This document shows positions 16,650-50,451 of a DNA stretch of 64,000 nucleotides, one piece after another; the first letter of the stretch is position 1; each line of letters opens with the position of its first letter. The notes beneath the pieces were generated by a model that saw nothing but the letters and a program-made list of their open reading frames with translations, did not search any database and was not told the DNA's origin. Position numbers and translations under genes: made by a program. Source of the stretch: a virus; IMG/VR virus record IMGVR_UViG_3300033149_001257, positions 1 through 64,000 of that record. The stretch is one strand, 5' to 3'.

Positions 16650-16780
16650 CACTACCCATAAAGGATATTCTCAGGTTGAGGATACAGAAGCCTGAAGGCT
16701 CTGCCCGAGCCTTAAAATGTTTAATGCAGCATTATAATCACGGTCAATTTCAAGACCACAGGAGCAACGATGAACGCGAA
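16646..16780 (-). ncRNA. putative TnpB omega-RNA (reRNA) scaffold; 5-prime limit approximate
   Basis: Overlaps the tnpB 3-prime end and right end; hairpins AGGCTC/GAGCCT, TCAGG/CCTGA and TATCC/GGGTA. Confidence 0.55.
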
Positions 16781-36741: not shown

Positions 36742-37269
36742 ATGGAATTAATGTCTTGCCCTAAATGTAAGTGCGACTGGTTTGAAGAAAGAGAGATAGC
36801 GCGATTTGATAAAAAGGCTGTTAATTTTCATACCGAGACAATGGCCGAAGAAAAAAAGATTTTGTATGCTTGCGTGGAATGTGGACATACAATAGCATCC
36901 CCAGAAAAGCAGGTGTTTAGAGATGTGAAAGTTATCGTGTTTGCCCGGGAGAGTGGTAAGATAAATTATATTAAATCAATCGCTCTCCCCTATTCCGAGA
37001 AAAAAGAAAAAACACACGTGGTGTTTAAGCATCTAAAAACTATGAACAATTTTTCTCAAAGCATTGGTTTTAAAAAAATAAATGTTTTGCTTTGGGTGGG
37101 ACATGAATCCATGGAGGGAATGGACGTGGAGTACGAATATTGTGGACTTCCTGACACCAAAACAATCCTACTGACCAATAAAGAATACTCTGCTGTGAAT
37201 GAGAGAATAAAACAGGATTATCCTGATGATAAGTATAATGTGGAAATCGTGGACAGGACTGAGGATTAA
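36742..37269 (+). CDS. zinc-ribbon-containing hypothetical protein
   Basis: CPKC...CVEC; last gene of the + arm. Confidence 0.7.
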   Translation: MELMSCPKCKCDWFEEREIARFDKKAVNFHTETMAEEKKILYACVECGHTIASPEKQVFRDVKVIVFARESGKINYIKSIALPYSEKKEKTHVVFKHLKTMNNFSQSIGFKKINVLLWVGHESMEGMDVEYEYCGLPDTKTILLTNKEYSAVNERIKQDYPDDKYNVEIVDRTED

Positions 37270-38045
37270 TTCTTTTCTTTTTTAGCCTTTTCGTTGGAAT
37301 TTATTATGGCATCGAAGAAATCTGACTTGAATAATAATTTTAATGTTTCGGCATTCTCCATTTGGCAGTGCCCCCCAATTATCCCCGGAAATAGTAACGG
37401 CCGTAGATACTGGTCAAGTCCGAGCTTTTTATAGCCCTTATTGTAGAGCCGGGTCACTTCTCTTACCGTAATGTTGTAGTCTGCCCCTATTTCCTTACAG
37501 AATCGCTCCATTTCTTGATTAAATGCCACCATGAGGGCATATTGGGTGGTTGATAGTATTTTGCCAAGGGCGACCGTTCTGGTGCCCTTTACGGGCAATA
37601 CCTTAAAGCACTGGCGTAGGTATCCAATACCCATTTCCTTGGCCTTAATTGTATCATATCCCATCATCTGGTCGCAGGCTCTCACGCTATCCGGTATGGC
37701 AAGTTCCAGGATAAATAAGGGGCAGTGTACTATATTTACCACTCCCCCTACTATTTTCTGGATATTCTCGCAAGCCATGGGACCAATGGAGCTCCATATC
37801 ACTACCAATTTGGGCTTATATTGCTTGATATACTCTGCCACGCTATGAATGAACTCTTTATTGTAAATATAGCATATATGTAATACTTCAAAATCGGGCT
37901 TATGATAATACGTACTTTCGTTCCCATTATAGGAATATTCCATATTCTCTATATCTCTCCAGTATGTATCATTCGGGTACCCCTGTCTTAATATTTCGCC
38001 TATCCTTTTACCTTCTTCGCCGTGTCCGATAATCAATCCTCTCAT
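37266..38045 (-). CDS. UDP-glucose/GDP-mannose dehydrogenase-family protein (short form)
   Basis: IIGHGEEG Rossmann motif, GKIL, catalytic GGHC; start coupled by ATGA. Confidence 0.8.
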   Translation of the reverse strand: MRGLIIGHGEEGKRIGEILRQGYPNDTYWRDIENMEYSYNGNESTYYHKPDFEVLHICYIYNKEFIHSVAEYIKQYKPKLVVIWSSIGPMACENIQKIVGGVVNIVHCPLFILELAIPDSVRACDQMMGYDTIKAKEMGIGYLRQCFKVLPVKGTRTVALGKILSTTQYALMVAFNQEMERFCKEIGADYNITVREVTRLYNKGYKKLGLDQYLRPLLFPGIIGGHCQMENAETLKLLFKSDFFDAIINSNEKAKKEKN

Positions 38046-39010
38046 TTTGAAATCCTTTCGCGCCAATAATTTAATATATCTTTTAGTGTATCGTCTATTG
38101 AGTATCTGCGTTCCCATCCTGTTTTCTTTACAAAGGCACTGTTATCTCCCCATAAAATAGGCACATCAGACGGCCTCATGCGCGCGGGGTCCTCTTTTAC
38201 TTGTATCTCACCCTTAACCGTAGACATTCCAATAAGTTTTCCCAATAAACTCTCCATGGTATGGGTTTCACCTGAGCATATATTATAGACCGCGCCGGCC
38301 TCGCAGTGCTCAGTGGCCAACCAATATGCACGAACCATGTCCCTCACATCCGTAAAATCTCTTTTTGCTGTAAGATTTCCCACGTTAATTACCGGTTGCC
38401 TAACACCTACCTCTATTTCGGCTATTTGTTTGGCAAAATTTGATAGCACAAAGACATCTCCCCTGCGGGGCCCGGAGTGATTGAATGCCCGGGTACGCTT
38501 GATATTCATGTTGTAACTCATGGCATATTGATACCCCATCATATCTTGAGCCACCTTACTTACTCCATATGGAGAGAGCGGCCGTAATGGATTAGTTTCC
38601 TTAATCGGACACTCGTTTTCATATACCATTCCGTACTCCTCCGACGAACAACATATCTGAATAATGCTGTCAAGTTTAAGCGCTCTCGTTGCCTCAAATA
38701 TATTCATTTGTCCGATGGTATTTACTTTCATTGTTTCTGCAGGGGCCGTCCATGATGCCGGGACATAAGATTGCGCGGCCATGTGAAATATTTTATCTGG
38801 CCGGACCTCTTTGAGCACATTATATACTGCGGTATAGTCCTGGATATCACACTCAAAAAACTTAACCTTATCCGTTAAGTGTTTTACGTTATCCATTTTA
38901 CTGCGCCAGCGCTTAATACCAAATACTTCGTAGTCTTTGTGTTCGCTAAGAATATAATCTGCCATGTGGCTGCCAACAAAGCCTGTAATTCCCGTAATCA
39001 ATACTTTCAT
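38042..39010 (-). CDS. gmd: GDP-mannose 4,6-dehydratase / GDP-6-deoxy-sugar SDR enzyme
   Basis: MKVLITGITGFVGSH, HMAAQSYV, SSEEYG, PLSPYGVSK, FNHSGPRRG, RDFTDVRD. Confidence 0.85.
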   Translation of the reverse strand: MKVLITGITGFVGSHMADYILSEHKDYEVFGIKRWRSKMDNVKHLTDKVKFFECDIQDYTAVYNVLKEVRPDKIFHMAAQSYVPASWTAPAETMKVNTIGQMNIFEATRALKLDSIIQICCSSEEYGMVYENECPIKETNPLRPLSPYGVSKVAQDMMGYQYAMSYNMNIKRTRAFNHSGPRRGDVFVLSNFAKQIAEIEVGVRQPVINVGNLTAKRDFTDVRDMVRAYWLATEHCEAGAVYNICSGETHTMESLLGKLIGMSTVKGEIQVKEDPARMRPSDVPILWGDNSAFVKKTGWERRYSIDDTLKDILNYWRERISK

Positions 39011-39546
39011 TTCTTTTTCTCCTCTTTTTTGAATTTCTCGGTTGCCCCAAATAAATAAGGATAGTTTTTTAGCGCTATCCATTTCTGGGTATACCTTTTA
39101 GCCATTGACCTTTTTGATGCCTGTTCTCCCTCTGATAATTCTACCGTATAGTTTGTATCGGTAATTCCAAATCCAAAACAGTATCTAACCGAATACAAAT
39201 CTTCCATAATCTTATATACCTGCCTGTGTTGATAGTGTCCGTATTCTCCATTCGCGTTATGGGTGAATATCATATCCCAGAAACCGTTACCGCCCGATAT
39301 GTTTAATATGTCTTGAGCTACTTTATTATTATCCCAGCCCACGTTAAGGCCCTGCTTAAATCCCAGGATATATCCATCGGCATTTAATCTTTCGCAATTA
39401 TCCATAAATTGGGGATCCCTGCCATGTGTATCATCGGTAGTTACACAGATGATTGTCCAATTAAAATCCATGAACTTATTGAGTGTGCCGCCCATCCATA
39501 ATGTTTCGTCGTCGGTGTGGGCAATTACTACCAATCCGTTTTTCAT
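39007..39546 (-). CDS. PIG-L/LmbE-family deacetylase
   Basis: AHTDDE and GEYGHYQH metal motifs. Confidence 0.85.
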   Translation of the reverse strand: MKNGLVVIAHTDDETLWMGGTLNKFMDFNWTIICVTTDDTHGRDPQFMDNCERLNADGYILGFKQGLNVGWDNNKVAQDILNISGGNGFWDMIFTHNANGEYGHYQHRQVYKIMEDLYSVRYCFGFGITDTNYTVELSEGEQASKRSMAKRYTQKWIALKNYPYLFGATEKFKKEEKKK

Positions 39547-40148
39547 GTTTTCCTCCTCATGCTCAATATTCTGGTATTGAACTTATCAAATTCTTCCTGT
39601 TGATATGGTTCAAGTATCTCGTTTAATTTGGGGTCAAAATCCTCTTTCTTAAACTCCGTTCCCCAGTCATGCGACATGATTAAATCCCCGGGTTTAAGTA
39701 TGTTGGCATAGAGTGGGAACTCCTCTACCTTACGGCCGTTATCGCAGAAGATGAGCGCCCTTTCATCACTTATAAAACTTTCCACATTCTCAACAGTAGC
39801 TTCACTGAAAACATCTGCCTGTATGAAATCTATATTAAGTCTTGTGAATATCTCGCGCAGGTTTCTGTCTTTATCTAAATCCGGCATTTTTTTATGGAAG
39901 TCAAATATATCCTTAGTGTCTATGGTTAGCACCCTACCCTTTTCCCCTTTCCACGTTTTACCTTTAGTCATCATGTGTAATCCAAAAAGTAATGTTAGTC
40001 CACCCCTGTCAGTACCAAGTTCCACCACTCTATTAATATCTGTTTCGGTACTTAATATATGGCTCAGTATACAAAAAGCACCCCAATTCTGGAATGCCGT
40101 ATATCCCGCAAACTCAAATCCTATTTTATCCAAATCGTAGTTAATCAT
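39543..40148 (-). CDS. class I SAM methyltransferase (CmcI/Methyltransf_24-like)
   Basis: VVELGTDRGG, TID, IFCD, LKPGD...HD. Confidence 0.75.
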   Translation of the reverse strand: MINYDLDKIGFEFAGYTAFQNWGAFCILSHILSTETDINRVVELGTDRGGLTLLFGLHMMTKGKTWKGEKGRVLTIDTKDIFDFHKKMPDLDKDRNLREIFTRLNIDFIQADVFSEATVENVESFISDERALIFCDNGRKVEEFPLYANILKPGDLIMSHDWGTEFKKEDFDPKLNEILEPYQQEEFDKFNTRILSMRRKT

Positions 40149-41326
40149 TTTGTGAGCTCTCCCTTGAATGTTTTATAGGAATCGCCGTTTACCGGATCAG
40201 TTGTATATAATGAACAAAACTGCGTATTAAATCCACGGCAACTGAGCCATACTTCTAATACTTCCTGCGGTATTACATATGGATGTCCTATATTAAGTTG
40301 CTCTGATATTCTCAGGTGGACCAGTAGATATAGCTTACCTCCGGGTTTGAGTACCCTGTGCATTTCTTTGATGGCACGCTCTGGATTGTTTGTGTGGTCT
40401 AATACGTTCGTGCAGAACACTATATCAAAAGAGTTGTCATTTGCTGGTATGTTTTCCGCGGCACCACTTTTCAATAAAATATTATCTGCTTTTATTATCC
40501 TCTTGTATTCTTCTGCCAACGTGTCTACCCCCACGAGCATCTTGGCATCTTTTATCTTTGAGCATAATCCACCAAGTGGGCCGCACCCCACGTCAAGTAT
40601 TGCCATACCTTTTGTTTTGGGCTTAAATAAATCAAGGTATTTCTGATATATCTCCGTACCTTTTCTTATCCCCGTGAGTTTCCAGTACTTCATTTCATAG
40701 GCCTTGTTATCTGCATTGTCCATCTTCTTAAAATATCCTATATTCTTGGGGTGACATTTAGTGCTTATCTTTGTAAGCATCATGGAATGTGTCATGGCAA
40801 ACTCTATCATGTCAGATATTGATTTTCTATTATAATACGGATATGTTTTCTCGGGATTCCATCCGGGGTCAACCACGTCAAGTATGAGATGCCCCCCCAC
40901 GTTAAGTCTTTCGGAACAATGATTAAAAAGCCAATCCTGTTTTATTTCCTTGAAATATGTAAACCCCATGGGTATGATTACATCGAAGTCCCCCATCTGT
41001 TCCGGTATCCCATCATTCACATCTCCATTAAATAGTACTGCCGGACACTTGAAATGGTGCACCATGTCGACTGCGCCCATGTACGTTGCCTGGTCTTTTT
41101 CAATACCATGTAGATTAGTGAATCCCCAATCTGCGAGCTGAATTAAATTATGTCCTATTCCACATCCGAGTTCCAATATCTTTGCATCTTTCGGTACGTT
41201 CCTATTTATCCAGTTAAGTATCTCGCGCTGATAATCCCCATGCTTCGGTAAATGATTAAACCACTTCTGTAGTCTATACTTATCTACCACATAATTAGTA
41301 TGCGCCATGAATTCTTTACTATCCAT
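40145..41326 (-). CDS. tandem two-domain SAM methyltransferase
   Basis: ILELGCGIG and ILDVGCGPLG; RVLKPGG. Confidence 0.85.
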   Translation of the reverse strand: MDSKEFMAHTNYVVDKYRLQKWFNHLPKHGDYQREILNWINRNVPKDAKILELGCGIGHNLIQLADWGFTNLHGIEKDQATYMGAVDMVHHFKCPAVLFNGDVNDGIPEQMGDFDVIIPMGFTYFKEIKQDWLFNHCSERLNVGGHLILDVVDPGWNPEKTYPYYNRKSISDMIEFAMTHSMMLTKISTKCHPKNIGYFKKMDNADNKAYEMKYWKLTGIRKGTEIYQKYLDLFKPKTKGMAILDVGCGPLGGLCSKIKDAKMLVGVDTLAEEYKRIIKADNILLKSGAAENIPANDNSFDIVFCTNVLDHTNNPERAIKEMHRVLKPGGKLYLLVHLRISEQLNIGHPYVIPQEVLEVWLSCRGFNTQFCSLYTTDPVNGDSYKTFKGELTK

Positions 41327-42254
41327 TGAGCCCCTCCTGTATCAATCTATCCCACTGTCCTATCTTTGCCTCCCATGACCAATTTTTCTTAATGTTTTTC
41401 GCCATAAGATTCCCCATGGTTTTACATTTTTCTTTACTGAGCTTCTTGAATGCCGAAACAATTGATGGCACATCCCTGTTTATAAGAAATCCCGTGATAC
41501 CATCTTGTATAATGTCCTCAGCAGCGCCAACCTTCGTTGCTATGATTGGTATTCCACATGCGGCCGCCTCAAGTATCGTGAGTGAACACCCCTCGCTCTC
41601 GCTTGCATTTATGTAGCAATCCAGGGAATTGTAAAAATCCGGCATTAGTCCATGGTACACCGGCTCCCTATCAGCATCAAGCATCTTAAACTCTATGGTG
41701 CTATCACAAATACAAGCAGCTTCTGCTATTAAGTCAAGCCCCCGGAAGGCGGATTGTCGGCCGCGGCCAGACCAACCCAGTACTATCCGGGGGTTTTTAT
41801 TGTTTATGTTCATCGGGTTGAATACCATCGTATCAACCCCATTTTCTGTTAATACCAAATTATTTATATCGTTATGGAATCTTGAATATAATGTTCTATT
41901 TATTATGCCCGTGGCACAATATGTTCTGGCTATATATTTTGTTGCCGACGCTACACTTCGGCAATCATTGATTGTCCTTATACTGTGAATCACCCCAACA
42001 TGTTTATCTATTGGTATATTATCTATTGGTTTGAGTATTACGTTGTTTTTTGGGTCGGTATATTTCCACCCCATACTTAATACTAAATCATGGTTTTCGT
42101 GTTTAGTCTCACTTAATTGCGAAGGTGTTTTCTTGTCAAACTTATATTTATGTTTCAATAATCTTATAATGTTATTGGCTATCACGTCATATGCCCACCC
42201 TATCCTATCCACAACTATTAATACTCTCGGCCTACCATCCATTTTTCGCTCCAA
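41319..42254 (-). CDS. GT4 (GT-B) glycosyltransferase
   Basis: NGVD...F, SESEGCSLTILEAAACGIPIIATKVG. Confidence 0.9.
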   Translation of the reverse strand: MERKMDGRPRVLIVVDRIGWAYDVIANNIIRLLKHKYKFDKKTPSQLSETKHENHDLVLSMGWKYTDPKNNVILKPIDNIPIDKHVGVIHSIRTINDCRSVASATKYIARTYCATGIINRTLYSRFHNDINNLVLTENGVDTMVFNPMNINNKNPRIVLGWSGRGRQSAFRGLDLIAEAACICDSTIEFKMLDADREPVYHGLMPDFYNSLDCYINASESEGCSLTILEAAACGIPIIATKVGAAEDIIQDGITGFLINRDVPSIVSAFKKLSKEKCKTMGNLMAKNIKKNWSWEAKIGQWDRLIQEGLNG

Positions 42255-43122
42255 ACCTTAAATTGTAGTATGGGTGCTTTTTCATTATATCGGGATGTTC
42301 ACCCTTGAAATGTTTTATTTTCATATCTTTATAGAATTTATTTTTGTGGATACCCTTTCCAAACCATGTGGACATCCAGTTTGTCATGTCATGCCGGAGC
42401 CCTTTAGCCATTAATTCCTTACGCCTGGCCCTGTCTACTGTAAAAGGAGTATTCTTGTCATATATGTGTGAGTAATGATAATACATTGCCTGTGTGGGTT
42501 GTAGTATCCTGCACCATGCGTTATACTCATCCAGGGAACAGTTAATACATGAAGTATATGGACCGTGTGGGACCTGGCCGGGTGGATGACTATTAGCATA
42601 TTTCGGATTTTTATATAGTGCGTTCCGCAAACCATGGAGCCTGCTCCCGGGCAACTTCTTTATCATTATGGCACCACTGCTATCAGCATAGTGCCAGAAA
42701 TCTCCGAAGAACCTAATTGCGTATACTATGACGTGCCTTACCTCTGGTTCCCTCACTATCAAATCAAATATATATTTTAAATCCTTAGGTTTATAAATTT
42801 CATCCGCGTCGACGACGAAACAGTAATCACCGGAAGCTTCATCGTACATATATCTACGTTTCACACCTTCCTTTTTCCATTTACCATATTTCAGGTTTAT
42901 TTTTTTATCTGTACGAGCAAGTTTCTTTAAATATTGAAACGTACCGTCGTCAGAAACGCCATTGTCTCCGTGAGTAATAGCACCCTTAGAATTGAAAGCA
43001 TCAATAATCCCATCGCATACTAGTATCTCATCTACCCATGGATGTATGGCATCTATGGAATATTTTATATAATTTATCTCGTTGAATACAGACATTAATG
43101 CTGTTACGCGTGGCTTTTTCAA
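42232..43122 (-). CDS. GT2 (GT-A) glycosyltransferase
   Basis: MSVFNE, SDDGT, VDADE (DxD). Confidence 0.85.
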   Translation of the reverse strand: MKKPRVTALMSVFNEINYIKYSIDAIHPWVDEILVCDGIIDAFNSKGAITHGDNGVSDDGTFQYLKKLARTDKKINLKYGKWKKEGVKRRYMYDEASGDYCFVVDADEIYKPKDLKYIFDLIVREPEVRHVIVYAIRFFGDFWHYADSSGAIMIKKLPGSRLHGLRNALYKNPKYANSHPPGQVPHGPYTSCINCSLDEYNAWCRILQPTQAMYYHYSHIYDKNTPFTVDRARRKELMAKGLRHDMTNWMSTWFGKGIHKNKFYKDMKIKHFKGEHPDIMKKHPYYNLRFGAKNGW

Positions 43123-43703
43123 AACTTAATATTACCTTTCTTCTTTAAGAAGTAGCTGGTAAATATGGTGCCGCCAACAGGGGGTGGCCCAGCCTCAGCT
43201 TTTTCCATTTTGAAATTCGTTTTGTTGAACAATTGTTTCATCTGGTCGCTATAAAATAAACTGTAATGATAATCTTCGTTCTGCCATTGGCGCACGTCGG
43301 GGACCACGATTAAACAGAACCCACCATCTTTCAGTAGTCTATTGAATTCACATAAAACCACGTAGGGGGCCAAGGAATGCTCAAATGAGTCCTTGCTATT
43401 TATGGCATCGAACGACGAATCTCCAAACGGAATTTCGTGCATATCGCCGTATCTTATGGGATGGTCTTTACCATACCTGGCCTTACCAACGCTCACTTCT
43501 TTTTGGGTTATGGTTATCCCCTGAGCATCAATACCTTTACCGCGGAGCCAGTTTACGAGAAGGCCCGTACCGCACCCGACATCAAGTACCTTCTTATATT
43601 TAAGCATTTCCTTGCCATAAAATTTCATATTATCTTCTTGCTCGCTGGCAGCGAACGGCTCATTCGGGATTCTTAAATATTTCAACCATTTTTTGTGATC
43701 CAT
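43119..43703 (-). CDS. class I SAM methyltransferase
   Basis: VLDVGCGTG, GDMHEIPF..SFD, FEH; start MDHKK. Confidence 0.88.
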   Translation of the reverse strand: MDHKKWLKYLRIPNEPFAASEQEDNMKFYGKEMLKYKKVLDVGCGTGLLVNWLRGKGIDAQGITITQKEVSVGKARYGKDHPIRYGDMHEIPFGDSSFDAINSKDSFEHSLAPYVVLCEFNRLLKDGGFCLIVVPDVRQWQNEDYHYSLFYSDQMKQLFNKTNFKMEKAEAGPPPVGGTIFTSYFLKKKGNIKF

Positions 43704-43705
43704 TT

Positions 43706-44437
43706 TTAAGCTCCTTTTCCAGTAGAATCTGTTCCCCTTGGGAAACATGACGACGGGTGGCAGTGTACACCATGCGCGCCAATGTGGTCCACTAAACTGG
43801 GATTTTTCATATAAACCAGCGCGTGCTCAAATCCTCTTTTAAATAATCTTGTACGGTACGAACCGTCGTCGATATGTGGCGATGTCCATATCTTGGGAAA
43901 GTTCTTCGTGGGCTCCAATTCATCCCACCCACCGGCTTCCAACACATCCATGGACATTATCCAACCCAGTCCACCTATCCAGTTACTCCATGCGTACTTC
44001 TTGCCCTCAAACTCATACTTTGTACCAGTATGGACTTTCTCTCCACGATTAAAACCTGTCATTATAGATATGGGGCGCTTGCCGGTCCAGTTCTTTTTAA
44101 GTGTTTCGTAGGCCGAAATCATTTCGCCGAGCCAGCCCTTTACTACGGTACAGTCATTATCAAGCATTACTGCATATTTACATCCGGATTTGTAGGCATG
44201 ATACCTCTTTAGCGCAAATGAATGCTGCCGGCCGGTACGAGTTTTCTTGAGTATCAACTTAATTTTACCCTTACTCTCAAGGTCCTGTAAGTATGGAATG
44301 GTGCCATCCGTAGACATGTCATCCACTACGACAATTTTATACCCTACTACAGTATTGTCAAATATTGAATTCAGGGTACGCTTCGTATAATTTAGTCTGT
44401 TGTAAGTATGCACGCATATTACATTGTCATTTTTCAT
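43706..44437 (-). CDS. GT2 glycosyltransferase
   Basis: HTYNR, VVDDMSTDGT, LDND, GGWDE. Confidence 0.9.
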   Translation of the reverse strand: MKNDNVICVHTYNRLNYTKRTLNSIFDNTVVGYKIVVVDDMSTDGTIPYLQDLESKGKIKLILKKTRTGRQHSFALKRYHAYKSGCKYAVMLDNDCTVVKGWLGEMISAYETLKKNWTGKRPISIMTGFNRGEKVHTGTKYEFEGKKYAWSNWIGGLGWIMSMDVLEAGGWDELEPTKNFPKIWTSPHIDDGSYRTRLFKRGFEHALVYMKNPSLVDHIGAHGVHCHPSSCFPRGTDSTGKGA

Positions 44438-44464
44438 ACAATTTTTTGTATGGAAATATACAAT

Positions 44465-45562
44465 TTATTGTATACCCCAAACTCCTTTCAATCGGATTAA
44501 TTCGTCCTTTATGTTCTTTGTCAGATTGTACCGGTCATATACCGCCCTTTGTCCGGTGGCAGCTACTCTTTCGCGTAATGCGTCGTTTCTTGCGAATTGC
44601 AATATCTTATTTTCCATATCGTCAAGGCTGTCCCAGAACACTGCTTCACTACCGTGCTTAAATATATCGGGGCATCCCTTTTCCTTATATGTCAAGAGAA
44701 GGCTCTTGCATCCCATCATCTGGAACGTCTTTGCATCAAAATACTTATCCGCAGGAACCCCATCCCAGTTCCGGGTATTTACGCATATCTTAGTATTGGA
44801 ATATATCTTCCATATCTCATGCTCGTTTACCCAGGGTTGTAGATATTTTACGGTACGGCTGTCGTTATCTGATACACCCCACCTTGTTCCTGGATTACCA
44901 CCCCACAGTTTATAGGTTAATCCAGTTCTCTCTGCTATGTCCATGAGCCTTGTGTTGACCTCTGCGCGGTTAGGACTTCCTATGGCATCCCATGTACCGG
45001 CAAAACATATATCAGCCTTATAATAATCTCTTTCTTCCGGTGTCATTTTATCTTTATTCGTTTCGTTATGGTGGTTAGGATTACACCCCGGATAGAATAA
45101 TACGGATTCTTTTATCCCGAGTTTATCTCTATAATAATTCTGGCTACTCTCAGCGCATGTCCATACCACATCAAAATACTTGCATTTCTCTACAATATCA
45201 CATCTGTTATTAAATACCCAGCCGGGGTCATCGTATATCCAGAATATCACATGCTTGACCTTCTCTCTTATCTTTTTAATTGTTTCGGTAAATGTGAAAT
45301 CTGCCTTAAATATTATAATCACGTCCGGCTTGTATCGGTCAATGGTATCAAGCGTGTCCTTCTGCATCATGTCAATTGCTTTCAATCTGGCCTTCGTGGG
45401 GTCCATCTTGGTTTTCCTTACAATGGCATCTCGTATATTCTTAACCACTGTCCTGGGTGCATAATACAAATAATCAAATCCAGCAGCATTTACTCCCTCT
45501 TCTACGCTTTCCCAGAAGGGGCCACCTGTAAGACTAAACCCTATGTTCATTAATTTCATCAT
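44465..45562 (-). CDS. CgeB-like (Glyco_trans_1_2) glycosyltransferase
   Basis: YKPDV, WIYDDP, DICFAGT, SNTKICVN...KTFQMMGC. Confidence 0.85.
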   Translation of the reverse strand: MMKLMNIGFSLTGGPFWESVEEGVNAAGFDYLYYAPRTVVKNIRDAIVRKTKMDPTKARLKAIDMMQKDTLDTIDRYKPDVIIIFKADFTFTETIKKIREKVKHVIFWIYDDPGWVFNNRCDIVEKCKYFDVVWTCAESSQNYYRDKLGIKESVLFYPGCNPNHHNETNKDKMTPEERDYYKADICFAGTWDAIGSPNRAEVNTRLMDIAERTGLTYKLWGGNPGTRWGVSDNDSRTVKYLQPWVNEHEIWKIYSNTKICVNTRNWDGVPADKYFDAKTFQMMGCKSLLLTYKEKGCPDIFKHGSEAVFWDSLDDMENKILQFARNDALRERVAATGQRAVYDRYNLTKNIKDELIRLKGVWGIQ

Positions 45563-46068
45563 GCTTTAATCCCTTCGAGATTCAAAGAAAATATGGAATT
45601 AGAGGCATCGTCTGGGGTGCCCCTAAACGACTTAAAATCTTTAATGCCGAGCGGTTGCAGGTAAGCTATTAATCTTATTTTATCAAATCCGTTCCTATGG
45701 AAAGACCCCGGCTCGTTATCGCGCTGATTACCATATATGTAACTTATCGCATTCCCTATGTTAAGTTTTCTGCATGTCAGGAAAGCGCAAATCATATCAA
45801 GGTTTGGTACGCATACCTTGAGAATTCCGCCGCGCTTTAAAACCCTTATCCAACCTTTTAATACCGGGCTACATTCAGCAGATGACATATGCTCTAAAAG
45901 ATGAGATGCGTAAACAAGGTCAAATTCGCCATCTTTAAATGTTAGTTTTCTTGCATCCATTTTAGTTACGGCCCCATTGGTGGGAACGCAGTCTATGTGT
46001 GTCCATGTAATATTCTTATCTGACTTCTTGACATTCCCCCCGCATCCTACGTTGAGAGCCTTAATCAT
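45559..46068 (-). CDS. class I SAM methyltransferase
   Basis: LNVGCGG, ASHLLEH, RVLKRGG...VPNL; start coupled by ATGA. Confidence 0.88.
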   Translation of the reverse strand: MIKALNVGCGGNVKKSDKNITWTHIDCVPTNGAVTKMDARKLTFKDGEFDLVYASHLLEHMSSAECSPVLKGWIRVLKRGGILKVCVPNLDMICAFLTCRKLNIGNAISYIYGNQRDNEPGSFHRNGFDKIRLIAYLQPLGIKDFKSFRGTPDDASNSIFSLNLEGIKA

Positions 46069-46880
46069 TTCACTTCCTCCAATCCATAGTATGGGTGTTT
46101 CTTCATTACTTCTGGGAGTTTGCCAGTGAATGGCTTCACCACCCCTCCAGAATTGGTCCATTGAGTATCTTGGCCAGGTCGCCATTCTGTATAAGTATTT
46201 TTTACGGTCTGCCCACGCCGTTCATAGTATTTCAGCTTACCCAAAACATTCTCAAATTTCTTTGCCGGTCCGAAGTGATAGCAATTAATTCCGGTGTTTA
46301 CTGCATGTGCCTTATAGAATGGGTCTGAGAGCCACACCTTATGTCCATTCTTGTCCGTTAGATAGGAATGGTGGTGTCTGTGTTTAAGATTCATGCTCGG
46401 GTCTATTCTGGCGCATCTAAATAGTTGCATGTTCCATGCCGACCCCACGGTTATCTGGCGAAAGTTTTTCCACATATGGATGTGATTTACAAGAAAAATG
46501 ATGGCCTCTGGGTCGTTATCTGCAAGTTCTGAGAGCGCATATAAATCCTTGAGATGGTATATCTCGTCAGCATCTATGAATAGGAGCAATTCCCCTTTCA
46601 TCATTTCAAGGCATTTATCGCGCATTTGTATTTTGTCGTTCCAGAAACCGTCTTTCTTGAATACGTGCACCTTGCTATGTTTTTTTTCAAGGTCAGTTAT
46701 AATCTGAACCGTATTGTCTTTTGAGTGCCCACTACTGTTCGCCATATGAGAGGCGTTCTTTACCGCGCCCTCAACTATATTAATGTCGGTTACGCATGAA
46801 CACTTTAATGGAGCGTCCATCGCGTACTCTAAGTACTCTGCTTCATTCAGACAAATTACGCAGACGCTTATCGATGCCAT
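46065..46880 (-). CDS. GT2 glycosyltransferase
   Basis: ICLNE, SKDNT, IDADE; paralog of 42232..43122. Confidence 0.85.
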   Translation of the reverse strand: MASISVCVICLNEAEYLEYAMDAPLKCSCVTDINIVEGAVKNASHMANSSGHSKDNTVQIITDLEKKHSKVHVFKKDGFWNDKIQMRDKCLEMMKGELLLFIDADEIYHLKDLYALSELADNDPEAIIFLVNHIHMWKNFRQITVGSAWNMQLFRCARIDPSMNLKHRHHHSYLTDKNGHKVWLSDPFYKAHAVNTGINCYHFGPAKKFENVLGKLKYYERRGQTVKNTYTEWRPGQDTQWTNSGGVVKPFTGKLPEVMKKHPYYGLEEVK

Positions 46881-48285
46881 TCGGAATTACCCTTTCTATT
46901 ATTTTTCTCAAATTATCACAGTATGCCTGGAATGTCATAATACCCTCAATGTATTCTTTACCCTGCTTACCACGTTGCGTTCTATACGTTTTATTAGTCA
47001 GTACCTTATTTAATTTTACCCCGAGGTCGTCAGCGCCTTTCTTGAAATCGGCATACTCTAAAAAGTCTTTATATTCCTCCCTGAAAAATGGAGTATCGTA
47101 GCATATACATGGTTTTTCACAATATAGGGCCTCTGCTGGAAACATTCCAAATCCTTCCATTGTTGACGGAAAAATTGCAGCCTTGGATCTTTTTATAATC
47201 CTAAACTTTTCAAGGTCGTCTACGTTCATGTGGAATTCCATGGAAATGTTTGTGCCCTTAGCGAGGTCCTGATACATCTTTTTTCTGTCCTCACCAATTG
47301 GATTACAAATAAAATTAATCTTTGGGGGATTAGGGATGTTCCTTAAACACGTGATTACATGTTCGGGGTGTTTATGAGCAACCAGTCTTGATACGAAAAC
47401 TATTTCATGCTGTTCTGTTTGTTCCGGTACGAGGTCTGCCACTTTATCGTTAATGAATGGATATAGCGCAGATATGTTTTCGGGTTTGTATGTATTACCA
47501 AGCCACCGTCCTGTATAATCTTTACATAGTTCATTCAGGCTCAGTACGTGTGTTGCTATTGATAGTGCTTTTTTGTATTTATCCCAGTACTCGTCAGTCG
47601 AGTCTGTTCCTTCGCGGAATAGTCTGGTATAGTTGGGGGATTCAAATATGAGTAGGGCCGAGGGAACATTCATGTTCTTCCCACTCATGGCGGCCTTTAC
47701 TCCCCCCTCTCTTGGTATGCCAACGAATAAATCAAACATATTTTCTGGCATATCAAAATCAAGGTAGAGGTTATTCATTATTCTTATTCTGTCATGGTGT
47801 GGATAATTCTTAAAGTCCATGGCAAAAGTGGGCTTAATGTTGGTACATACGGTTACATCAAATCCTATGTTAGCTAAGGCATATATCATTCCCCACGCAT
47901 AATACCTGCCACCACTATAATGAGTAGCTATGTTCTCCATAAAGAACGCCACCTGTGGTCTTTTAGACATCGGGCCCTTTATGGCGAATGGTAGCATCTC
48001 TGCCGGTAAGTGGTGTTTTACTACCTCAAATATTCCAGGGGATACGTTTATTTTTTCATATACCACGTTCCTGCCTATTTCTACCCCTATCACACTATCG
48101 TCTATCTTTTTAATCCTTCCATGCGCAACCCATGATTGTACGCTGGGATCACATAAGTCAATACCTTTAAGTATAAGTATTTCCCCCACCTCTGCGGCCT
48201 GACCTTTGAATAATAGTTGCTTTTTGTCAATGCCTACGTTCAGGTATTTACCCGATACTAACGAGTGCCTTTTGTAGTGAGCCAT
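46843..48285 (-). CDS. GT4 glycosyltransferase with N-terminal extension
   Basis: YSGG, VSRLVAHK, PSTMEGFGMFPAEALYC. Confidence 0.88.
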   Translation of the reverse strand: MAHYKRHSLVSGKYLNVGIDKKQLLFKGQAAEVGEILILKGIDLCDPSVQSWVAHGRIKKIDDSVIGVEIGRNVVYEKINVSPGIFEVVKHHLPAEMLPFAIKGPMSKRPQVAFFMENIATHYSGGRYYAWGMIYALANIGFDVTVCTNIKPTFAMDFKNYPHHDRIRIMNNLYLDFDMPENMFDLFVGIPREGGVKAAMSGKNMNVPSALLIFESPNYTRLFREGTDSTDEYWDKYKKALSIATHVLSLNELCKDYTGRWLGNTYKPENISALYPFINDKVADLVPEQTEQHEIVFVSRLVAHKHPEHVITCLRNIPNPPKINFICNPIGEDRKKMYQDLAKGTNISMEFHMNVDDLEKFRIIKRSKAAIFPSTMEGFGMFPAEALYCEKPCICYDTPFFREEYKDFLEYADFKKGADDLGVKLNKVLTNKTYRTQRGKQGKEYIEGIMTFQAYCDNLRKIIERVIPNGIDKRLRNLSE

Positions 48286-49367
48286 ATTTTATCTAACCTC
48301 TCAAGGTATTTTTTACTTACCAATTCTATGTCAAACTTGTTTTTTATTGTAGTTCTTGCCCTCTTCCCTTTTCTTTCAAGCATTTCTCTATCAGATACTA
48401 TGTTCTGCAGCGCATATATTAAGGAACCCATCTGCGGATTCTGGAATTTAAGTCCTTTATAGTGAGTGCTCATAGACCCATACTGTGGGTATTTCGTTGT
48501 GAGTTCTCCACATTCTATGATATATCCATTCTCTTTGTTACAGAAATCTGCCATGGCCGAACGCTCAGGAACTATGATGGGTTTCCCACACGACATACAT
48601 TCAGCAGCCGGTAGATTAAATCCATCTCCAAGTGATGGGAATAGCCCTATATCACAGTCTGTATAAACCCCGGGGAGTGAGTTTTCCTCAAACCTTACGG
48701 TAGTGAATACGATATTAGGCAACTCTTTATCTCCGAGTTTATTTCTGGCCCCATTTATCATATCAACGATATTCTTTTTATCGGTATAGTATGTCGCAAG
48801 CATAAGAGTAGCCTGGTGTTTATCAAACGCTCTCAGGAAAGCATTTATGGCTAAGTGGAACCCCTTGCGAGAGCACCAACGCCCAAGCATTAATATCCTA
48901 AGTCCTTCGGGATTCATAAAATTCATGGGTTTATGTGTGGGATTGAACGTCCCGGTATCTATACCAAGTGGCATTACGTATATTTTGTCCTCGGGATATA
49001 TGCGGCTAAACACTTCTTTGTTAATTTCGGAGGGTACCCATAGTTCATCAAAAGCATTGAGTTTATCGGTGAAACTCTCCGGTAATTGCATGGCCTCAAA
49101 CATAGTATATGCTATATTATATCTTGAATTGTCTGGTATTTCCAGTAGGAACGGTGGGCCTATGCCAATAAAAATAGGCCTCTCAACTGTATTCTTGAGA
49201 AGCCTATGTATCGTATCTCTTTTTTCTATTTTCTCGTCTGTATTCTCTGCATTTGTTGATACTATTTTCACATTAGCTTTAAGGCTATCAAGCCCTGTCG
49301 CTATGTTCCGTAGTGCCGTTGCGAAACCTGTAAACCCCCATGCTTGTCCGCGTATCTCAATATCCAT
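48258..49367 (-). CDS. GT4 glycosyltransferase
   Basis: TGF, YTMFE, WVPS, RKG, PSLGDGFNLPAAECMSCG. Confidence 0.9.
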   Translation of the reverse strand: MDIEIRGQAWGFTGFATALRNIATGLDSLKANVKIVSTNAENTDEKIEKRDTIHRLLKNTVERPIFIGIGPPFLLEIPDNSRYNIAYTMFEAMQLPESFTDKLNAFDELWVPSEINKEVFSRIYPEDKIYVMPLGIDTGTFNPTHKPMNFMNPEGLRILMLGRWCSRKGFHLAINAFLRAFDKHQATLMLATYYTDKKNIVDMINGARNKLGDKELPNIVFTTVRFEENSLPGVYTDCDIGLFPSLGDGFNLPAAECMSCGKPIIVPERSAMADFCNKENGYIIECGELTTKYPQYGSMSTHYKGLKFQNPQMGSLIYALQNIVSDREMLERKGKRARTTIKNKFDIELVSKKYLERLDKIWLTTKGTR

Positions 49368-49385: not shown

Positions 49386-49664
49386 TTATTTTATGGTATT
49401 CTTTATTTGCTGAATACCATCTTTTATTGCATTATGCACAACTTCATATAGACCGGATGCTATTGCCGCTGACCATAATCCAAGAATTATGGCTGAGTAC
49501 ACATTGTCTACCATGCCCTGTAGGTGGAAAAATAATCCAACTCCCACTCCCGAACCAAAAGATACTATAATCTTCCATGTCTTATTAAGTCCCGGAACTA
49601 TACCCTTTATCATTTCTACGATAAGGTTGATACTTGCTACCATTTTAATTATAGTTGCTTCCAT
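49386..49664 (-). CDS. putative holin
   Basis: 92 aa, 2-3 TM segments, AIILGLWSAAIASGLYE motif; near the endolysin. Confidence 0.7.
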   Translation of the reverse strand: MEATIIKMVASINLIVEMIKGIVPGLNKTWKIIVSFGSGVGVGLFFHLQGMVDNVYSAIILGLWSAAIASGLYEVVHNAIKDGIQQIKNTIK

Positions 49665-49712
49665 GTTAATCCTCCTTACAAACTTTTACCTTCTGAGTCT
49701 ATTTTCATTATT

Positions 49713-50084
49713 TTATATGTCAAGTAAAACGCCTATGGAAATTCCCGCGCGCCATACTTTTCCAATAAAATCACGCGCACAAAATACGCCCATTTTAACC
49801 TTGTCGTCCATGGCCCACTTCCAGTTAAGTTTGTTTGAAAGTTCTCTGAGGTCTAAATTTATTGAAATGAGATAGGAGATTGAAGACATTTCGGTTATTA
49901 GTCCGGCATCTAAAGATACAACCTTATTGAAGTTTACTACCGATATGGTACCGCCCACCAAAAGCGTATCCGTGCACGCATCATAAAATGTTGATGCAGT
50001 CAAATCTCCACTTTCCGCAAATGCTATTCCTCCCCATCCACCCAAAACCAAAACCAGCGCCATTACCAAAAACAATTTCTTCAT
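49713..50084 (-). CDS. secreted beta-rich protein
   Basis: Signal peptide MKKLFLVMALVLVLGGWGGIAFA; GGAGG RBS (start 50084 or 50090). Confidence 0.65.
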   Translation of the reverse strand: MKKLFLVMALVLVLGGWGGIAFAESGDLTASTFYDACTDTLLVGGTISVVNFNKVVSLDAGLITEMSSISYLISINLDLRELSNKLNWKWAMDDKVKMGVFCARDFIGKVWRAGISIGVLLDI

Positions 50085-50136
50085 CTTCACCCTTGCCTCC
50101 TTTACCTTCTTTTTGTACTTCTTTTTCATCTTTCTA

Positions 50137-50165
50137 ATTGTAACACATAAGCCGATAGAAATCAA
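50137..50165 (-). promoter_or_regulatory. putative sigma70 promoter upstream of the secreted protein, holin and glycan locus
   Basis: TTGATT-17-TACAAT with TG extension, in an intergenic gap. Confidence 0.55.
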
Positions 50166-50193
50166 GCATTTCCTGATATTTGTTGGGATTTTT

Positions 50194-50451
50194 TTACTTC
50201 CCCAGTGCAGAGATATTAATTCTATCAACGCTTTTCTGGACTTCTTTAATCCTTTTTTGGTTGTCTTTTTCCACATAAAATGCCGCTTCCATATAGCCCA
50301 TCGTCCCTCGATGATATGAGTTAGATAGTTCTATTTTAATTTCGTTACAGAATATCCTGTGCTCAAATTTATTTAGATTCGTGGATATTAAAAGCCATGC
50401 TATTATAGCTACCAATATCACGATGAGATAATCTTTTATTTTACTTGGCAA
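50194..50451 (-). CDS. membrane-anchored protein (spanin-like position)
   Basis: N-terminal TM; overlaps the endolysin end. Confidence 0.55.
   Translation of the reverse strand: MPSKIKDYLIVILVAIIAWLLISTNLNKFEHRIFCNEIKIELSNSYHRGTMGYMEAAFYVEKDNQKRIKEVQKSVDRINISALGK

What the first reader, a model, noticed from the sequence alone, without database searches (positions are those of the whole stretch)
37266..49367. 12-kb, 14-gene phage glycan synthesis and decoration locus in the late arm
The locus has seven glycosyltransferases (3 GT4, 3 GT2, 1 CgeB-like), four methyltransferase genes (five domains), a PIG-L deacetylase, a GDP-sugar dehydratase and an NDP-sugar dehydrogenase. Nearly all have overlapping stops and starts and are co-directional with the tail and lysis genes. 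I see no flippase, polymerase, initiating phosphoglycosyl transferase or membrane-bound GT, unlike Gtr-type serotype conversion or O-antigen loci. There is also no base hydroxymethylase or similar DNA-modification handle in the window. Inference: a soluble pathway building a complex methylated deoxy/uronic-sugar glycan on virion proteins, larger than the few-GT capsid glycosylation described in actinophages and closer in scale to giant-virus loci. DNA or host-surface modification remain alternatives.
Basis: partly seen in the sequence, partly recalled or inferred. Interest (0 to 1): 0.85.

Follow-up and report, generated by a model that had tools for sequence, protein, structure and literature searches.

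The report
Phage late-operon glycan-building gene locus
An uncultured 110-kb tailed phage ends its late (virion and lysis) operon with 14 soluble sugar-adding, sugar-methylating and sugar-tailoring enzymes. Its core enzyme pair sits next to capsid genes in at least four other phage lineages, so the set most likely sugar-coats the phage particle, though nobody has measured this.

Summary
Fourteen tightly packed minus-strand genes (37266-49367) follow the holin by 18 nt: 3 GT4, 3 GT2, 1 CgeB-like GT, 4 methyltransferase genes (5 domains), a PIG-L deacetylase and two sugar-nucleotide enzymes.

Two labels need correcting. The "GDP-sugar dehydratase" scores closest to GDP-rhamnose-forming reductase (RMD) and GDP-heptose 4,6-dehydratase, not to canonical GMD. 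The "dehydrogenase" lacks its nucleotide-sugar-binding domain, so "uronic acid" is unsupported.

None of the 14 has a transmembrane helix. The 110-kb contig holds no initiating transferase, flippase-like protein, thymidylate-synthase-like hydroxymethylase, TET/JBP or C5 methylase. Codon usage matches the late genes. No near-identical cellular gene was found for the two genes checked.

New evidence: g2 (GT4) and g3 (GT2) are one fused protein in relatives. In 18 IMG/VR contigs this module lies beside head genes in four lineages, directly after the major capsid gene in two. Two complete ~100-kb relatives carry large glycan loci.

Virion glycosylation is therefore the best reading (about 0.5). 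It is unproven, the enzymes are unrelated to the mycobacteriophage ones, and host-surface remodelling remains a rival. Larger phage glycan clusters (P-SSM2) are already published, and this scan has noted similar head-module islands in other genomes.

The parts
48258..49367 (-). g1, GT4 glycosyltransferase (369 aa), first gene after the holin
   Evidence: Pfam Glyco_trans_1_4 50.8 bits, GT4-conflict 38.6 bits. A g1-like gene precedes the GT4/GT2 fusion right after the capsid gene in L104.
46843..48285 (-). g2, GT4 glycosyltransferase (480 aa) with a ~110-aa N-terminal extension; core-module partner of g3
   Evidence: Pfam Glycos_transf_1 77.5 bits. The model has pLDDT 83.6 and a retaining GT-B fold like MshA, GlgM and ManT. 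It is fused to a g3-like GT2 in P0004, P0005, P0007 and P0008 and in IMG/VR loci.
46065..46880 (-). g3, GT2 glycosyltransferase (271 aa); overlaps g2 by 38 nt; the split form of a fusion protein
   Evidence: Pfam Glycos_transf_2 45.5 bits. Family alignment A5 has invariant DxDE, HFW and YH motifs. The model has pLDDT 87.6 and a GT-A fold. The family has 247 representatives at E<=1e-30.
45559..46185 (-). g4, SAM methyltransferase (likely start at 46068)
   Evidence: Pfam Methyltransf_11 39 bits. A homologue follows the GT fusion in L101 and L102.
44465..45562 (-). g5, CgeB-like GT-B glycosyltransferase (365 aa)
   Evidence: Pfam Glyco_trans_1_2 71.9 bits. The same family occurs in the glycan locus of complete phage G020.
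43706..44437 (-). g6, GT2 glycosyltransferase (243 aa)
   Evidence: Pfam Glycos_transf_2 57.1 bits.
43119..43748 (-). g7, SAM methyltransferase
   Evidence: Pfam Methyltransf_11 68.2 bits. A homologue occurs in L106.
42232..43122 (-). g8, GT2 glycosyltransferase, paralogue of g3
   Evidence: Pfam Glycos_transf_2 35.7 bits. BLAST against g3 gives 24% identity over 305 aa, E 8e-12, with a shared C-terminal MKKHPYY motif.
41319..42254 (-). g9, GT4 glycosyltransferase (311 aa)
   Evidence: Pfam Glyco_trans_1_4 59.1 bits. Weak NCBIfam hits to GlcNAc-transferring GT4s (GlcN-PG synthase, MshA, BshA), all far below cut-off.
40145..41326 (-). g10, double SAM methyltransferase (393 aa, two domains)
   Evidence: Pfam Methyltransf_25, _23 and _31 each match with 2 stretches. 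SAM motif I occurs in both halves.
39543..40148 (-). g11, Methyltransf_24 / CmcI-like (rhamnosyl O-methyltransferase-like) protein; weak assignment
   Evidence: PF04989 20.2 bits and PF13578 20.8 bits, both below cut-off. Clear Methyltransf_24 genes accompany the module in G020 (cluster c9 in L098, L101 and L102).
39007..39546 (-). g12, PIG-L/LmbE-type de-N-acetylase (179 aa)
   Evidence: Pfam PIG-L 43.7 bits, above the 28.2 cut-off. An AHTDDE metal-binding motif is visible in the sequence.
38042..39013 (-). g13, GDP-sugar SDR of the RMD / GDP-heptose 4,6-dehydratase clade (ORF extends to 39082; likely start at 39013)
   Evidence: PF16363 275.8 bits. TIGR01472 gmd scores 176, below the 415 cut-off. 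PDB 2pk3 RMD 264 bits, 7us5 GDP-heptose dehydratase 244 bits, true GMDs 127-150 bits. Best cellular hits are 58-64% identical in scattered phyla. A 45%-identical homologue lies between portal and protease genes in L092.
37266..38045 (-). g14, truncated NDP-sugar dehydrogenase-like protein (ORF extends to 38117). Its stop overlaps by 4 nt the stop of the convergent plus-strand ORF 36742-37269.
   Evidence: PF00984 23.6 bits, below 25.4. TIGR03026 41 bits, below 189.8, covering model positions 97-277 of 413. GGHC aligns with the catalytic Cys of Cap5O. No UDPG_MGDP_dh_C domain in the contig.
49386..50848 (-). Context: lysis cassette directly upstream (endolysin 50441-50848, a 187-aa ORF, holin 49386-49664)
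   Evidence: phrog_1299 holin 1.3e-8, phrog_465 endolysin 8.7e-17, Peptidase_M15_4. The gap from holin to g1 is 18 nt.

Best explanation
The locus is a phage-owned, cytoplasmic glycosylation pathway. It is transcribed with the late (virion and lysis) genes and most likely builds a methylated hetero-oligosaccharide on a virion protein, probably a head protein.

Proposed steps; all are inferred unless marked shown:
1. Host GDP- and UDP-sugars are the donors, because the locus has no nucleotidyltransferase.
2. g13 makes a GDP-linked 6-deoxy sugar (D-rhamnose or 6-deoxyheptose type). g14 may be an accessory oxidoreductase or may be inactive.
3. Seven soluble GTs add sugars one after another. g2 and g3 act as a pair. 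The pairing is shown by their fusion in relatives; the shared activity is inferred.
4. A GlcNAc residue placed by a GT4 is de-N-acetylated by the PIG-L enzyme g12. This follows the GT4 plus PIG-L two-step logic of mycothiol, bacillithiol and GPI synthesis.
5. Five methyltransferase domains O- or N-methylate the sugars.
6. The glycan coats the particle, for shielding or adhesion.
For: Shown:
- All 14 enzymes are soluble.
- They form one overlapping operon starting 18 nt after the holin. Sigma-70-like promoter matches are not enriched (60 found, 58 expected).
- GC content and codon usage match the late genes (r = 0.90, against 0.82 for late versus early genes).
- g2 and g3 are a single GT4-GT2 polypeptide in P0004, P0005, P0007 and P0008 and in most of 18 IMG/VR contigs.

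Context of the g2/g3 module in other phages:
- Lineage 1 (11 contigs, capsid proteins 28-96% identical): the order is TerL, portal (phrog_12, 3e-38), protease-like gene, scaffold-like gene, major head protein (phrog_10/1623), then the GT fusion.
- L104 has a different capsid family (phrog_1357, 9e-39). The order is capsid, g1-like GT4, GT fusion.
- L098, L100 and L101: the GT fusion and methyltransferases lie just upstream of TerL and portal.
- G020 (100 kb, terminal repeats, complete): a locus with the same enzyme repertoire (GT4, Methyltransf_24, CgeB-like GT, methyltransferases, SDR, two g2-like genes, one g3-like gene) lies two ORFs upstream of a head protease-like gene and a capsid-like gene.
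- L092: a g13-like SDR sits between the portal and protease genes.

Other support:
- None of the 18 related records has a ThyA-like enzyme.
- Precedent: mycobacteriophages use an O-methyltransferase plus three GTs, encoded in the head module, to glycosylate capsid and tail-tube proteins (PMC11600133, PMC12363180; Corndog gene map).
Against: - There is no experimental data; this is an uncultured viral contig.
- In this phage the locus is not in the head module. It lies about 23 kb downstream of the capsid gene (72695-73762), after the lysis genes and 1.5 kb from a tyrosine integrase (34840-35751). That is a classic position for lysogenic-conversion genes.
- The head-module association is shown for g1, g2, g3, methyltransferases and a g13-like gene, not for all 14 genes.
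- No Ser/Thr-rich tail or sequon-rich acceptor is evident in this phage's late proteins.
- There is no detectable similarity to the Che8 or Corndog enzymes.
Confidence: 0.5

Rival explanations
1. Host-envelope remodelling (an LPS, EPS or S-layer glycan 'moron'). The soluble GTs and methyltransferases would extend or cap a host lipid-linked glycan, using the host's initiating transferase, flippase or ABC exporter and ligase. This would change the cell surface, giving superinfection exclusion or serotype conversion during lysogeny or a stalled infection.
For: - The position after the lysis cassette and 1.5 kb from an integrase is typical of conversion genes.
- GT4, GT2 and methyltransferase repertoires are typical of O-antigen and EPS loci. 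There are weak NCBIfam hits to EPS GTs such as HpsP, HpsN, EpsD, EpsE and TuaC/TuaG.
- Most O-antigen GTs are peripheral proteins without TM helices, so 'soluble' does not exclude this reading.
- Published interpretation of the large glycan clusters of P-SSM2 and S-SCSM2R (PMC1079782, PMC12801897).
Against: - The contig has no initiating transferase, flippase, polymerase or Gtr-type protein.
- The operon is fused to the late and lysis genes with an 18-nt gap and no enriched promoter signal, so expression would come minutes before lysis.
- The core GT module is embedded next to capsid genes across capsid divergence down to 28% identity and in unrelated capsid families. That is hard to explain for a surface-conversion moron.
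- No close cellular homologue of g2 exists in 5.8 billion proteins.
Confidence: 0.2
2. The pathway acts on another soluble cytoplasmic acceptor. Candidates are a free polymethylated oligo- or polysaccharide (as in mycobacterial methylmannose polysaccharide), a glycolipid or small molecule, or a host protein, serving takeover or anti-defence.
For: - The locus alternates GT and methyltransferase genes.
- g2's model matches the methylmannose-polysaccharide mannosyltransferase ManT (7qsg) among its top hits.
- g4 has a weak hit to the mycofactocin oligosaccharide methyltransferase.
- GT4 plus PIG-L is the logic of mycothiol and bacillithiol (small-molecule) synthesis.
Against: - All these matches are generic GT-B or methyltransferase similarities far below family cut-offs.
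- This reading does not explain the recurrent capsid-gene adjacency in relatives.
- No precedent in phages is known to me.
Confidence: 0.15
3. DNA hypermodification. The GTs would glycosylate a modified base (5hmC or 5hmU) in phage DNA to evade restriction.
For: - Phage GT-A and GT-B enzymes related to LPS GTs do glycosylate 5hmC, and some such clusters neighbour terminase and other packaging or replication genes (10.1101/2023.12.21.572611).
- The contig is estimated at only 66% complete.
- The phage encodes nucleotide-pool enzymes: a MazZ-like domain and an NT5C nucleotidase.
Against: - The 110 kb holds no thymidylate-synthase-like hydroxymethylase, TET/JBP or C5 methylase.
- None of the 18 related records has a ThyA-like enzyme, including two complete genomes. 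The TET/JBP search of the related records also found nothing, but had no positive control.
- Seven GTs, five methyltransferase domains and a deacetylase far exceed the mono- to trisaccharide DNA modifications reported in that preprint.
Confidence: 0.04
4. Assembly artefact. The glycan genes would be a bacterial fragment joined by mistake to a phage contig.
For: This is a metagenome-derived contig without terminal repeats. The flanking 535-aa tail ORF has no homologue elsewhere, so the junction cannot be confirmed in a relative.
Against: - GC content (0.41 against 0.42 and 0.41) and codon usage match the phage genes.
- Both junctions are tight: 18 nt to the holin, and a 4-nt overlap of stop codons with the convergent plus arm.
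- The locus lies 37 kb or more from either contig end, between phage genes on both sides.
- Homologous modules occur in 18 other viral contigs.
Confidence: 0.03

Closest known systems
Mycobacteriophage virion glycosylation cassettes (Che8 gp108-110; Corndog and cluster O gp35-38; Freeman et al. 2023, as cited in PMC11600133 and PMC12363180)
   Same: Phage-encoded soluble GTs plus an O-methyltransferase, encoded within or beside the structural operon and acting in the cytoplasm on capsid and tail-tube proteins. In Corndog the genes lie upstream of the capsid maturation protease gene, gene 39. This resembles the head-module position of the g2/g3 module in lineages 1-4 here.
   Different: There is no detectable sequence similarity (best BLAST E about 0.01). 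This locus has 14 genes against 3-4, with its own sugar-nucleotide tailoring enzymes, a deacetylase and five methyltransferase domains. In this phage it sits after the lysis genes rather than in the head module. The host is unknown and probably not an actinobacterium. No biochemical evidence exists.
'LPS' / cell-wall synthesis gene clusters of T4-like cyanophages (P-SSM2: 24 genes; S-SCSM2R: 13 GTs; PMC1079782, PMC12801897)
   Same: Large phage-borne sets of GTs and NDP-sugar epimerases or dehydratases without export machinery. Their function is unproven.
   Different: Those clusters are in myoviruses and were interpreted as host-surface modification. No tblastn match was found between g2, g5 or g8 and any of 50,697 deposited phage records, apart from one 21%-coverage, 29.5%-identity hit of g2 to an unannotated faecal phage contig. 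Here the locus is a single operon fused to the late transcript, and its core module associates with capsid genes elsewhere.
Giant-virus autonomous glycosylation loci (chlorovirus A064R and partners; mimivirus fibril-glycan clusters; from my own knowledge and review PMC7019647, which was listed but not read)
   Same: Virus-encoded, host-independent synthesis of methylated 6-deoxy-sugar glycans on capsid proteins by soluble GT and methyltransferase enzymes. The scale is similar (about 10 or more genes).
   Different: Those are eukaryotic viruses with unrelated capsids. No homology was tested here, so this is a resemblance of logic only.
Gtr-type and other prophage serotype-conversion loci
   Same: Phage-borne glycan-modifying genes near an integrase.
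   Different: Those depend on multi-pass membrane proteins (GtrA flippase, GtrB, a serotype-specific GT, Oac, Wzy). Nothing of that kind is present in this contig.

Membership tests
Actinophage-type virion glycosylation cassette | Phage-encoded soluble glycosyltransferases with an accompanying sugar methyltransferase | tested here: met
   7 GTs and 4 methyltransferase genes, none with a TM helix.
Actinophage-type virion glycosylation cassette | Sequence homology to Che8 gp108-110 or Corndog gp35-38 | tested here: not met
   BLASTP of all 14 proteins against these 8 proteins gave a best E of 0.013 and no alignment of substance.
Actinophage-type virion glycosylation cassette | Genes embedded in or co-transcribed with the virion structural operon | tested here: met
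   Same strand, 18 nt after the holin at the end of the late operon. The homologous GT4-GT2 module lies inside head modules in four other lineages.
Actinophage-type virion glycosylation cassette | Glycan demonstrably attached to capsid or tail-tube subunits | not testable with these tools
   This needs virions or heterologous expression plus mass spectrometry.
Gtr / O-antigen serotype-conversion locus | Membrane flippase, bactoprenol GT and polytopic serotype-specific GT or acetylase | tested here: not met
   No frame has more than 5 hydropathy-predicted TM segments. The two 4-TM frames lie antisense to or overlapping longer plus-strand ORFs, and the 5-TM frame is only 161 aa. None of the 14 locus proteins has a TM helix.
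Wzx/Wzy- or ABC-dependent polysaccharide locus | Initiating phosphoglycosyl transferase (Bac_transf or MraY/WecA family) | tested here: not met
   PF02397 and PF00953 gave no match at E<=1 in the 110 kb, with positive controls ringing. The host could still supply one.
Phage DNA sugar-hypermodification BGC | A 5-hydroxymethylpyrimidine source: a ThyA-like hydroxymethylase, or C5 methylase plus TET/JBP dioxygenase | tested here: not met
   PF00303, PF12851 and PF00145 are absent from the contig. PF00303 is absent from all 18 related records with a working control. The PF12851 search of the related records had no positive control. The contig is estimated 66% complete.
GDP-mannose 4,6-dehydratase (GMD) equivalog | Score above the TIGR01472 cut-off, and closest solved relatives are GMDs | tested here: not met
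   176 bits against a 415 cut-off. The closest solved relatives are RMD 2pk3 (264 bits) and GDP-heptose dehydratase 7us5 (244 bits), ahead of GMDs at 150 bits or less. g13 belongs to the wider GDP-sugar SDR family; its activity is undetermined.
UDP-glucose/GDP-mannose dehydrogenase family | Three-domain architecture (N-terminal NAD-binding, central, C-terminal nucleotide-sugar-binding) with a catalytic Cys | tested here: not met
   A central domain and the GGHC motif are present. The C-terminal domain is absent from the contig, and scores are below cut-off.

The most novel reading that the evidence does not exclude
A bifunctional GT4-GT2 enzyme family, with about 250 representative clusters at 50% identity and absent from all cultured phages, may be the core of a widespread and so far undescribed capsid-glycosylation system of uncultured tailed phages. 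In this phage it would have grown into a 14-enzyme autonomous pathway that coats the virion with a methylated amino- and 6-deoxy-sugar glycan. That would be a bacteriophage counterpart of giant-virus self-glycosylation, evolved independently of the mycobacteriophage system.
Probability: 0.35. Interest if true: 0.8.

Novelty: new variant of a known kind. Interest (0 to 1): 0.6.

Why it matters
To my knowledge, among tailed phages virion glycosylation by phage-encoded enzymes has been shown experimentally only in mycobacteriophages, where it blunts antibody recognition.

If this enzymatically unrelated and much larger pathway also decorates virions, particle glycosylation would be a general phage trait that has evolved more than once. 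That would bear on phage stability, adsorption, grazing, immune recognition and phage therapy.

It would also offer a source of soluble, acceptor-specific protein glycosyltransferases and sugar methyltransferases.

The fused MCP-adjacent GT4-GT2 genes give a minimal two-gene system (capsid plus GT) in which the question can be tested directly in E. coli.

Tried and rejected
The 20.7-kb JGI contig carrying the 83%-identical g2 homologue P0002 therefore could not be read. A metagenome scan did not retrieve it.
- Megablast of the whole locus against deposited phages gave nothing.
- tblastn against 50,697 phage records gave no match for g5 or g8. g2 and the L096 GT fusion each gave only one short, low-identity hit to unannotated faecal phage contigs.
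- Single-protein IMG/VR scans with g2 and TerL found nothing. Only alignment-based scans worked.
- The window phage's own distant relatives (L084-L086) are short fragments and uninformative about the locus.
- Host identification failed. TerL is only about 24% identical to Microcystis phage MaeS and to Bacillus and Clostridium phages. g13's best cellular hits are scattered across phyla.
- A search for Ser/Thr-rich tails or sequon-rich proteins among this phage's late proteins found nothing striking.
- The GT4-conflict Pfam hit of g1 is weaker than its generic GT1 hit. That family describes immune effectors (PMC8195603), so I did not pursue it.
- Z-genome idea: a MazZ-like domain is present but no PurZ. 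Rejected.
The seven ORFs upstream of G020's locus and the G010 region were therefore annotated only in bulk.

Full report
**What the record is.** The window is the first 64 kb of a single 110,457-bp IMG/VR viral contig. It is linear, has no terminal repeat, and CheckV estimates it 66% complete. The genome has two arms.

- A plus-strand arm runs 85.6-110.4 kb and continues at 1-37.3 kb. It carries DnaN, DnaB, UvrD, an SMC-like ATPase, two DNA N-methylases and a tyrosine integrase at 34840-35751.
- A minus-strand late arm runs from about 83.5 kb down to 37.3 kb. In order it carries:
  - TerL at 81044-82867 (phrog_2).
  - The portal at 78973-80772, identified by synteny and homology with L084-L086.
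  - TnpB.
  - The major capsid protein at 72695-73762. Atlas structural neighbours are capsid families.
  - The tape measure protein at 64179-67922.
  - Large tail proteins.
  - An M15 endolysin and a holin.
  - The 14 genes of the finding.

The two arms converge at 37266-37269, where their stop codons overlap.

**Observation.** There are three GT4 genes (g1, g2, g9), three GT2 genes (g3, g6, g8), one CgeB-like Glyco_trans_1_2 gene (g5) and four methyltransferase genes. One of these (g10) is double and one (g11) is weak. There is also a PIG-L deacetylase (g12), an SDR of the GDP_Man_Dehyd model (g13) and a dehydrogenase-like protein (g14).

- Twelve of the 14 junctions overlap. The gap to the holin is 18 nt.
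- No protein in the locus has a hydropathy-predicted TM helix.
- No frame in the contig has more than five TM segments.
- Bac_transf and MraY/WecA families are absent, with working controls.
- ThyA-like, TET/JBP, C5-methylase and PurZ families are absent from all 110 kb.

**Two corrections.** First, g13 scores 264 bits against the GDP-4-keto-6-deoxymannose reductase RMD (2pk3). It scores 244 bits against the Campylobacter GDP-heptose 4,6-dehydratase (7us5), but only 127-150 bits against true GMDs. It also falls far below the TIGR01472 cut-off. It makes or reduces a GDP-linked 6-deoxy sugar, but which step it performs is open.

Second, g14 has a GxGxxG Rossmann start, the central domain and a GGHC motif. 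That motif aligns with the catalytic cysteine of Cap5O. It ends before the nucleotide-sugar-binding domain, which is found nowhere in the contig. A uronic acid should not be inferred from it.

**Is it foreign or chimeric?** GC content is 0.411 for the locus, 0.419 for late genes and 0.408 for early genes. Codon-frequency correlation with the late genes is 0.90, higher than late versus early at 0.82. In 5.8 billion proteins g2 has only eight relatives. The best non-self hit is 83% identical on a 20.7-kb metagenome contig, and the rest are 41% or less. g13 reaches at most 64% identity in 185,579 species genomes, and the hits fall in scattered phyla. So for the two genes checked there is no sign of a recent capture from a host LPS/EPS locus. 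There is also no compositional sign of a mis-join.

**The key comparative result.** Four of g2's distant homologues are 630-710-aa proteins in which the GT4 domain is followed by a GT2 domain that aligns with g3 along its whole length. In the window g2 and g3 overlap by 38 nt, so they are the split form of one bifunctional enzyme. An alignment-based IMG/VR scan found 18 viral contigs with this GT4. In most of them it is followed at once by, or fused to, a g3-like GT2. Their neighbourhoods fall into four groups.

| Group | Contigs | Gene order around the module |
|---|---|---|
| 1 | L090-L097, L099, L105, L107 | TerL-like, portal (phrog_12, 2.9e-38), protease-like, scaffold-like, major head protein (phrog_10 and phrog_1623, about 1e-12), GT fusion |
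| 2 | L098, L100, L101, L102 | GT fusion, g4/g10-like and Methyltransf_24-type methyltransferases, three or four further ORFs, then TerL (phrog_2) and portal (phrog_2662, 5.5e-101) |
| 3 | L104 | Portal (phrog_64), internal virion protein, major head protein of another family (phrog_1357, 9e-39), g1-like GT4, GT fusion |
| 4 | L106 = G020 | Large glycan locus, two unannotated ORFs, head protease-like gene (phrog_80, 7e-8), capsid-like gene (weak hit) |

In group 1 the fusion follows the head protein by 21-140 nt where it follows directly. In three contigs one gene (c11, or a 178-aa ORF in L099) intervenes. The head proteins themselves range from 28% to 96% identity.

G020 is complete, at 100,391 bp with terminal repeats. 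Its locus has the same repertoire as the window's: a g9-like GT4, Methyltransf_24, a CgeB-like GT, methyltransferases, an SDR, GT9, two g2-like genes and one g3-like gene.

In L092 a 45%-identical g13 homologue sits between the portal and protease genes. G010 (105 kb, CheckV-complete) and G020 together carry further glycan genes. These include GT1, GT2, GT9, a TOD1-like GT, an FkbM methyltransferase, a cytidylyltransferase, an acetyltransferase, an aldolase, a radical-SAM enzyme and a sulfotransferase. None of the 18 records has a ThyA-like enzyme.

The g3-type GT2 family has 247 representatives at E<=1e-30 and 1,159 at E<=1e-10 among 1.84 billion cluster representatives. By my count about a quarter of the best 150 have the fused 600-850-aa architecture. 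No deposited phage genome encodes it.

**Interpretation.** A GT module that stays glued to capsid genes behaves like part of the head-assembly programme rather than a surface-conversion moron. It does so across capsid divergence down to 28% identity and in unrelated capsid families. This matches the one experimentally established case. In mycobacteriophages an O-methyltransferase and three GTs glycosylate the capsid and tail tube (PMC11600133, PMC12363180). In Corndog those genes lie upstream of the capsid maturation protease gene, gene 39.

Lineage-1 capsid proteins end in short S/T/G/A-rich tails such as ...GLTTGSAS. That echoes the C-terminal glycan sites reported for mycobacteriophages in PMC12619734's summary of Freeman et al. 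This is a lead only.

For the window's locus I therefore favour cytoplasmic, late glycosylation of a virion protein (confidence 0.5). The glycan would be built by seven sequential GTs, with g2 and g3 as a pair. It would contain a GDP-derived 6-deoxy sugar and a GlcNAc de-N-acetylated by g12, following the GT4 plus PIG-L logic of mycothiol, bacillithiol and GPI synthesis. That logic is established knowledge, not tested here. The glycan would also be heavily O- or N-methylated.

**Caveats and rivals.**
- In this phage the locus lies after the lysis genes and 1.5 kb from an integrase. That is where conversion genes usually sit, so host-envelope remodelling using host initiation and export machinery remains possible (0.2). 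That reading was proposed for the 24-gene clusters of P-SSM2 (PMC1079782) and for S-SCSM2R (PMC12801897). Those loci also show that large phage glycan clusters are not new.
- Another soluble acceptor, such as a free methylated glycan, a small molecule or a host protein, cannot be excluded (0.15).
- DNA glycosylation lacks its handle in this contig and in complete relatives, and would be out of scale (0.04).
- A chimeric contig is unlikely (0.03).
- The enzymes are not homologous to the Che8 or Corndog enzymes.
- Fold searches do not reveal the acceptor class.
- No obvious acceptor motif exists in this phage's late proteins.

**Standing within this scan.** Earlier notes of this scan report similar GT and methyltransferase islands inside head modules of other uncultured phages. 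One example is a 12-enzyme island with a deacetylase and sulfation genes between the capsid and neck genes. They are unchecked AI notes and were not used as evidence, but the theme has been seen before on other DNA.

**Verdict.** I class this as a new variant of a known kind: phage virion glycosylation with an unrelated, much larger enzyme set. Interest is 0.6.

Noticed in passing
window 49164-49207 (minus strand), inside the 5' part of g1: There is a 13-bp perfect hairpin followed by UUUUUAUU about 160 nt into the g1 coding sequence. Folding energy is -22.4 kcal/mol, z = -5.6, and 0 of 200 shuffles fold as well. A promoter-like TGGAAA-17-TATAAT lies just downstream at 49144-49116. It could attenuate read-through from the late and lysis transcript into the glycan genes, or it could be chance.
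   Followed up: partly
window 46843-46880: g2 and g3 overlap by 38 nt in different frames, whereas relatives encode one fused GT4-GT2 protein. The split is also present in the 83%-identical homologue P0002 (482 aa).
   Followed up: partly
G000 95775-96518 (L002:11775-12518) and neighbours: A MazZ-like dATP/dGTP diphosphohydrolase domain is fused to an NMN-transporter-like N-terminus. It sits beside an NT5C-type deoxynucleotidase, an M42 aminopeptidase and a D123-like protein. No PurZ is present in the contig, so this is not a recognisable Z-genome set.
   Followed up: partly
window 34840-35751 (+): A tyrosine recombinase or integrase sits at the distal end of the plus arm, 1.5 kb from the point where the two arms converge. 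Whether the phage is temperate was not established.
   Followed up: no
G000 77449-78540 (minus strand) and window 16671-17771 (minus strand): An IS200/IS605-type TnpB gene (phrog_506, 7e-101) is inserted in the late operon between the portal and head genes. The ORF at window 16671-17771 was called a second tnpB by first-stage notes; I did not check it.
   Followed up: no
L090-L099, L105 (C-termini of the major head proteins): Capsid proteins that precede the GT4-GT2 fusion end in short Ser/Thr/Gly/Ala-rich tails (for example GLTTGSAS, LTAPTAS, AASSAS), although they are only 28-55% identical overall. These tails are candidate glycosylation sites.
   Followed up: partly
G010 74000-93000 (L110) and G020 about 18900-40000 (L106, L108): Two complete ~100-kb uncultured phages carry large glycan loci. 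The genes include a cytidylyltransferase, a hexapeptide acetyltransferase, an HpcH-type aldolase, radical-SAM/SPASM, a sulfotransferase, GT9 and a TOD1-like GT. This suggests nonulosonic-acid-like or otherwise exotic sugars.
   Followed up: partly
window 37266-37269: The stop codon of g14 (minus strand) and that of ORF 36742-37269 (plus strand) overlap. The two genome arms therefore converge with no intergenic space for a terminator.
   Followed up: no
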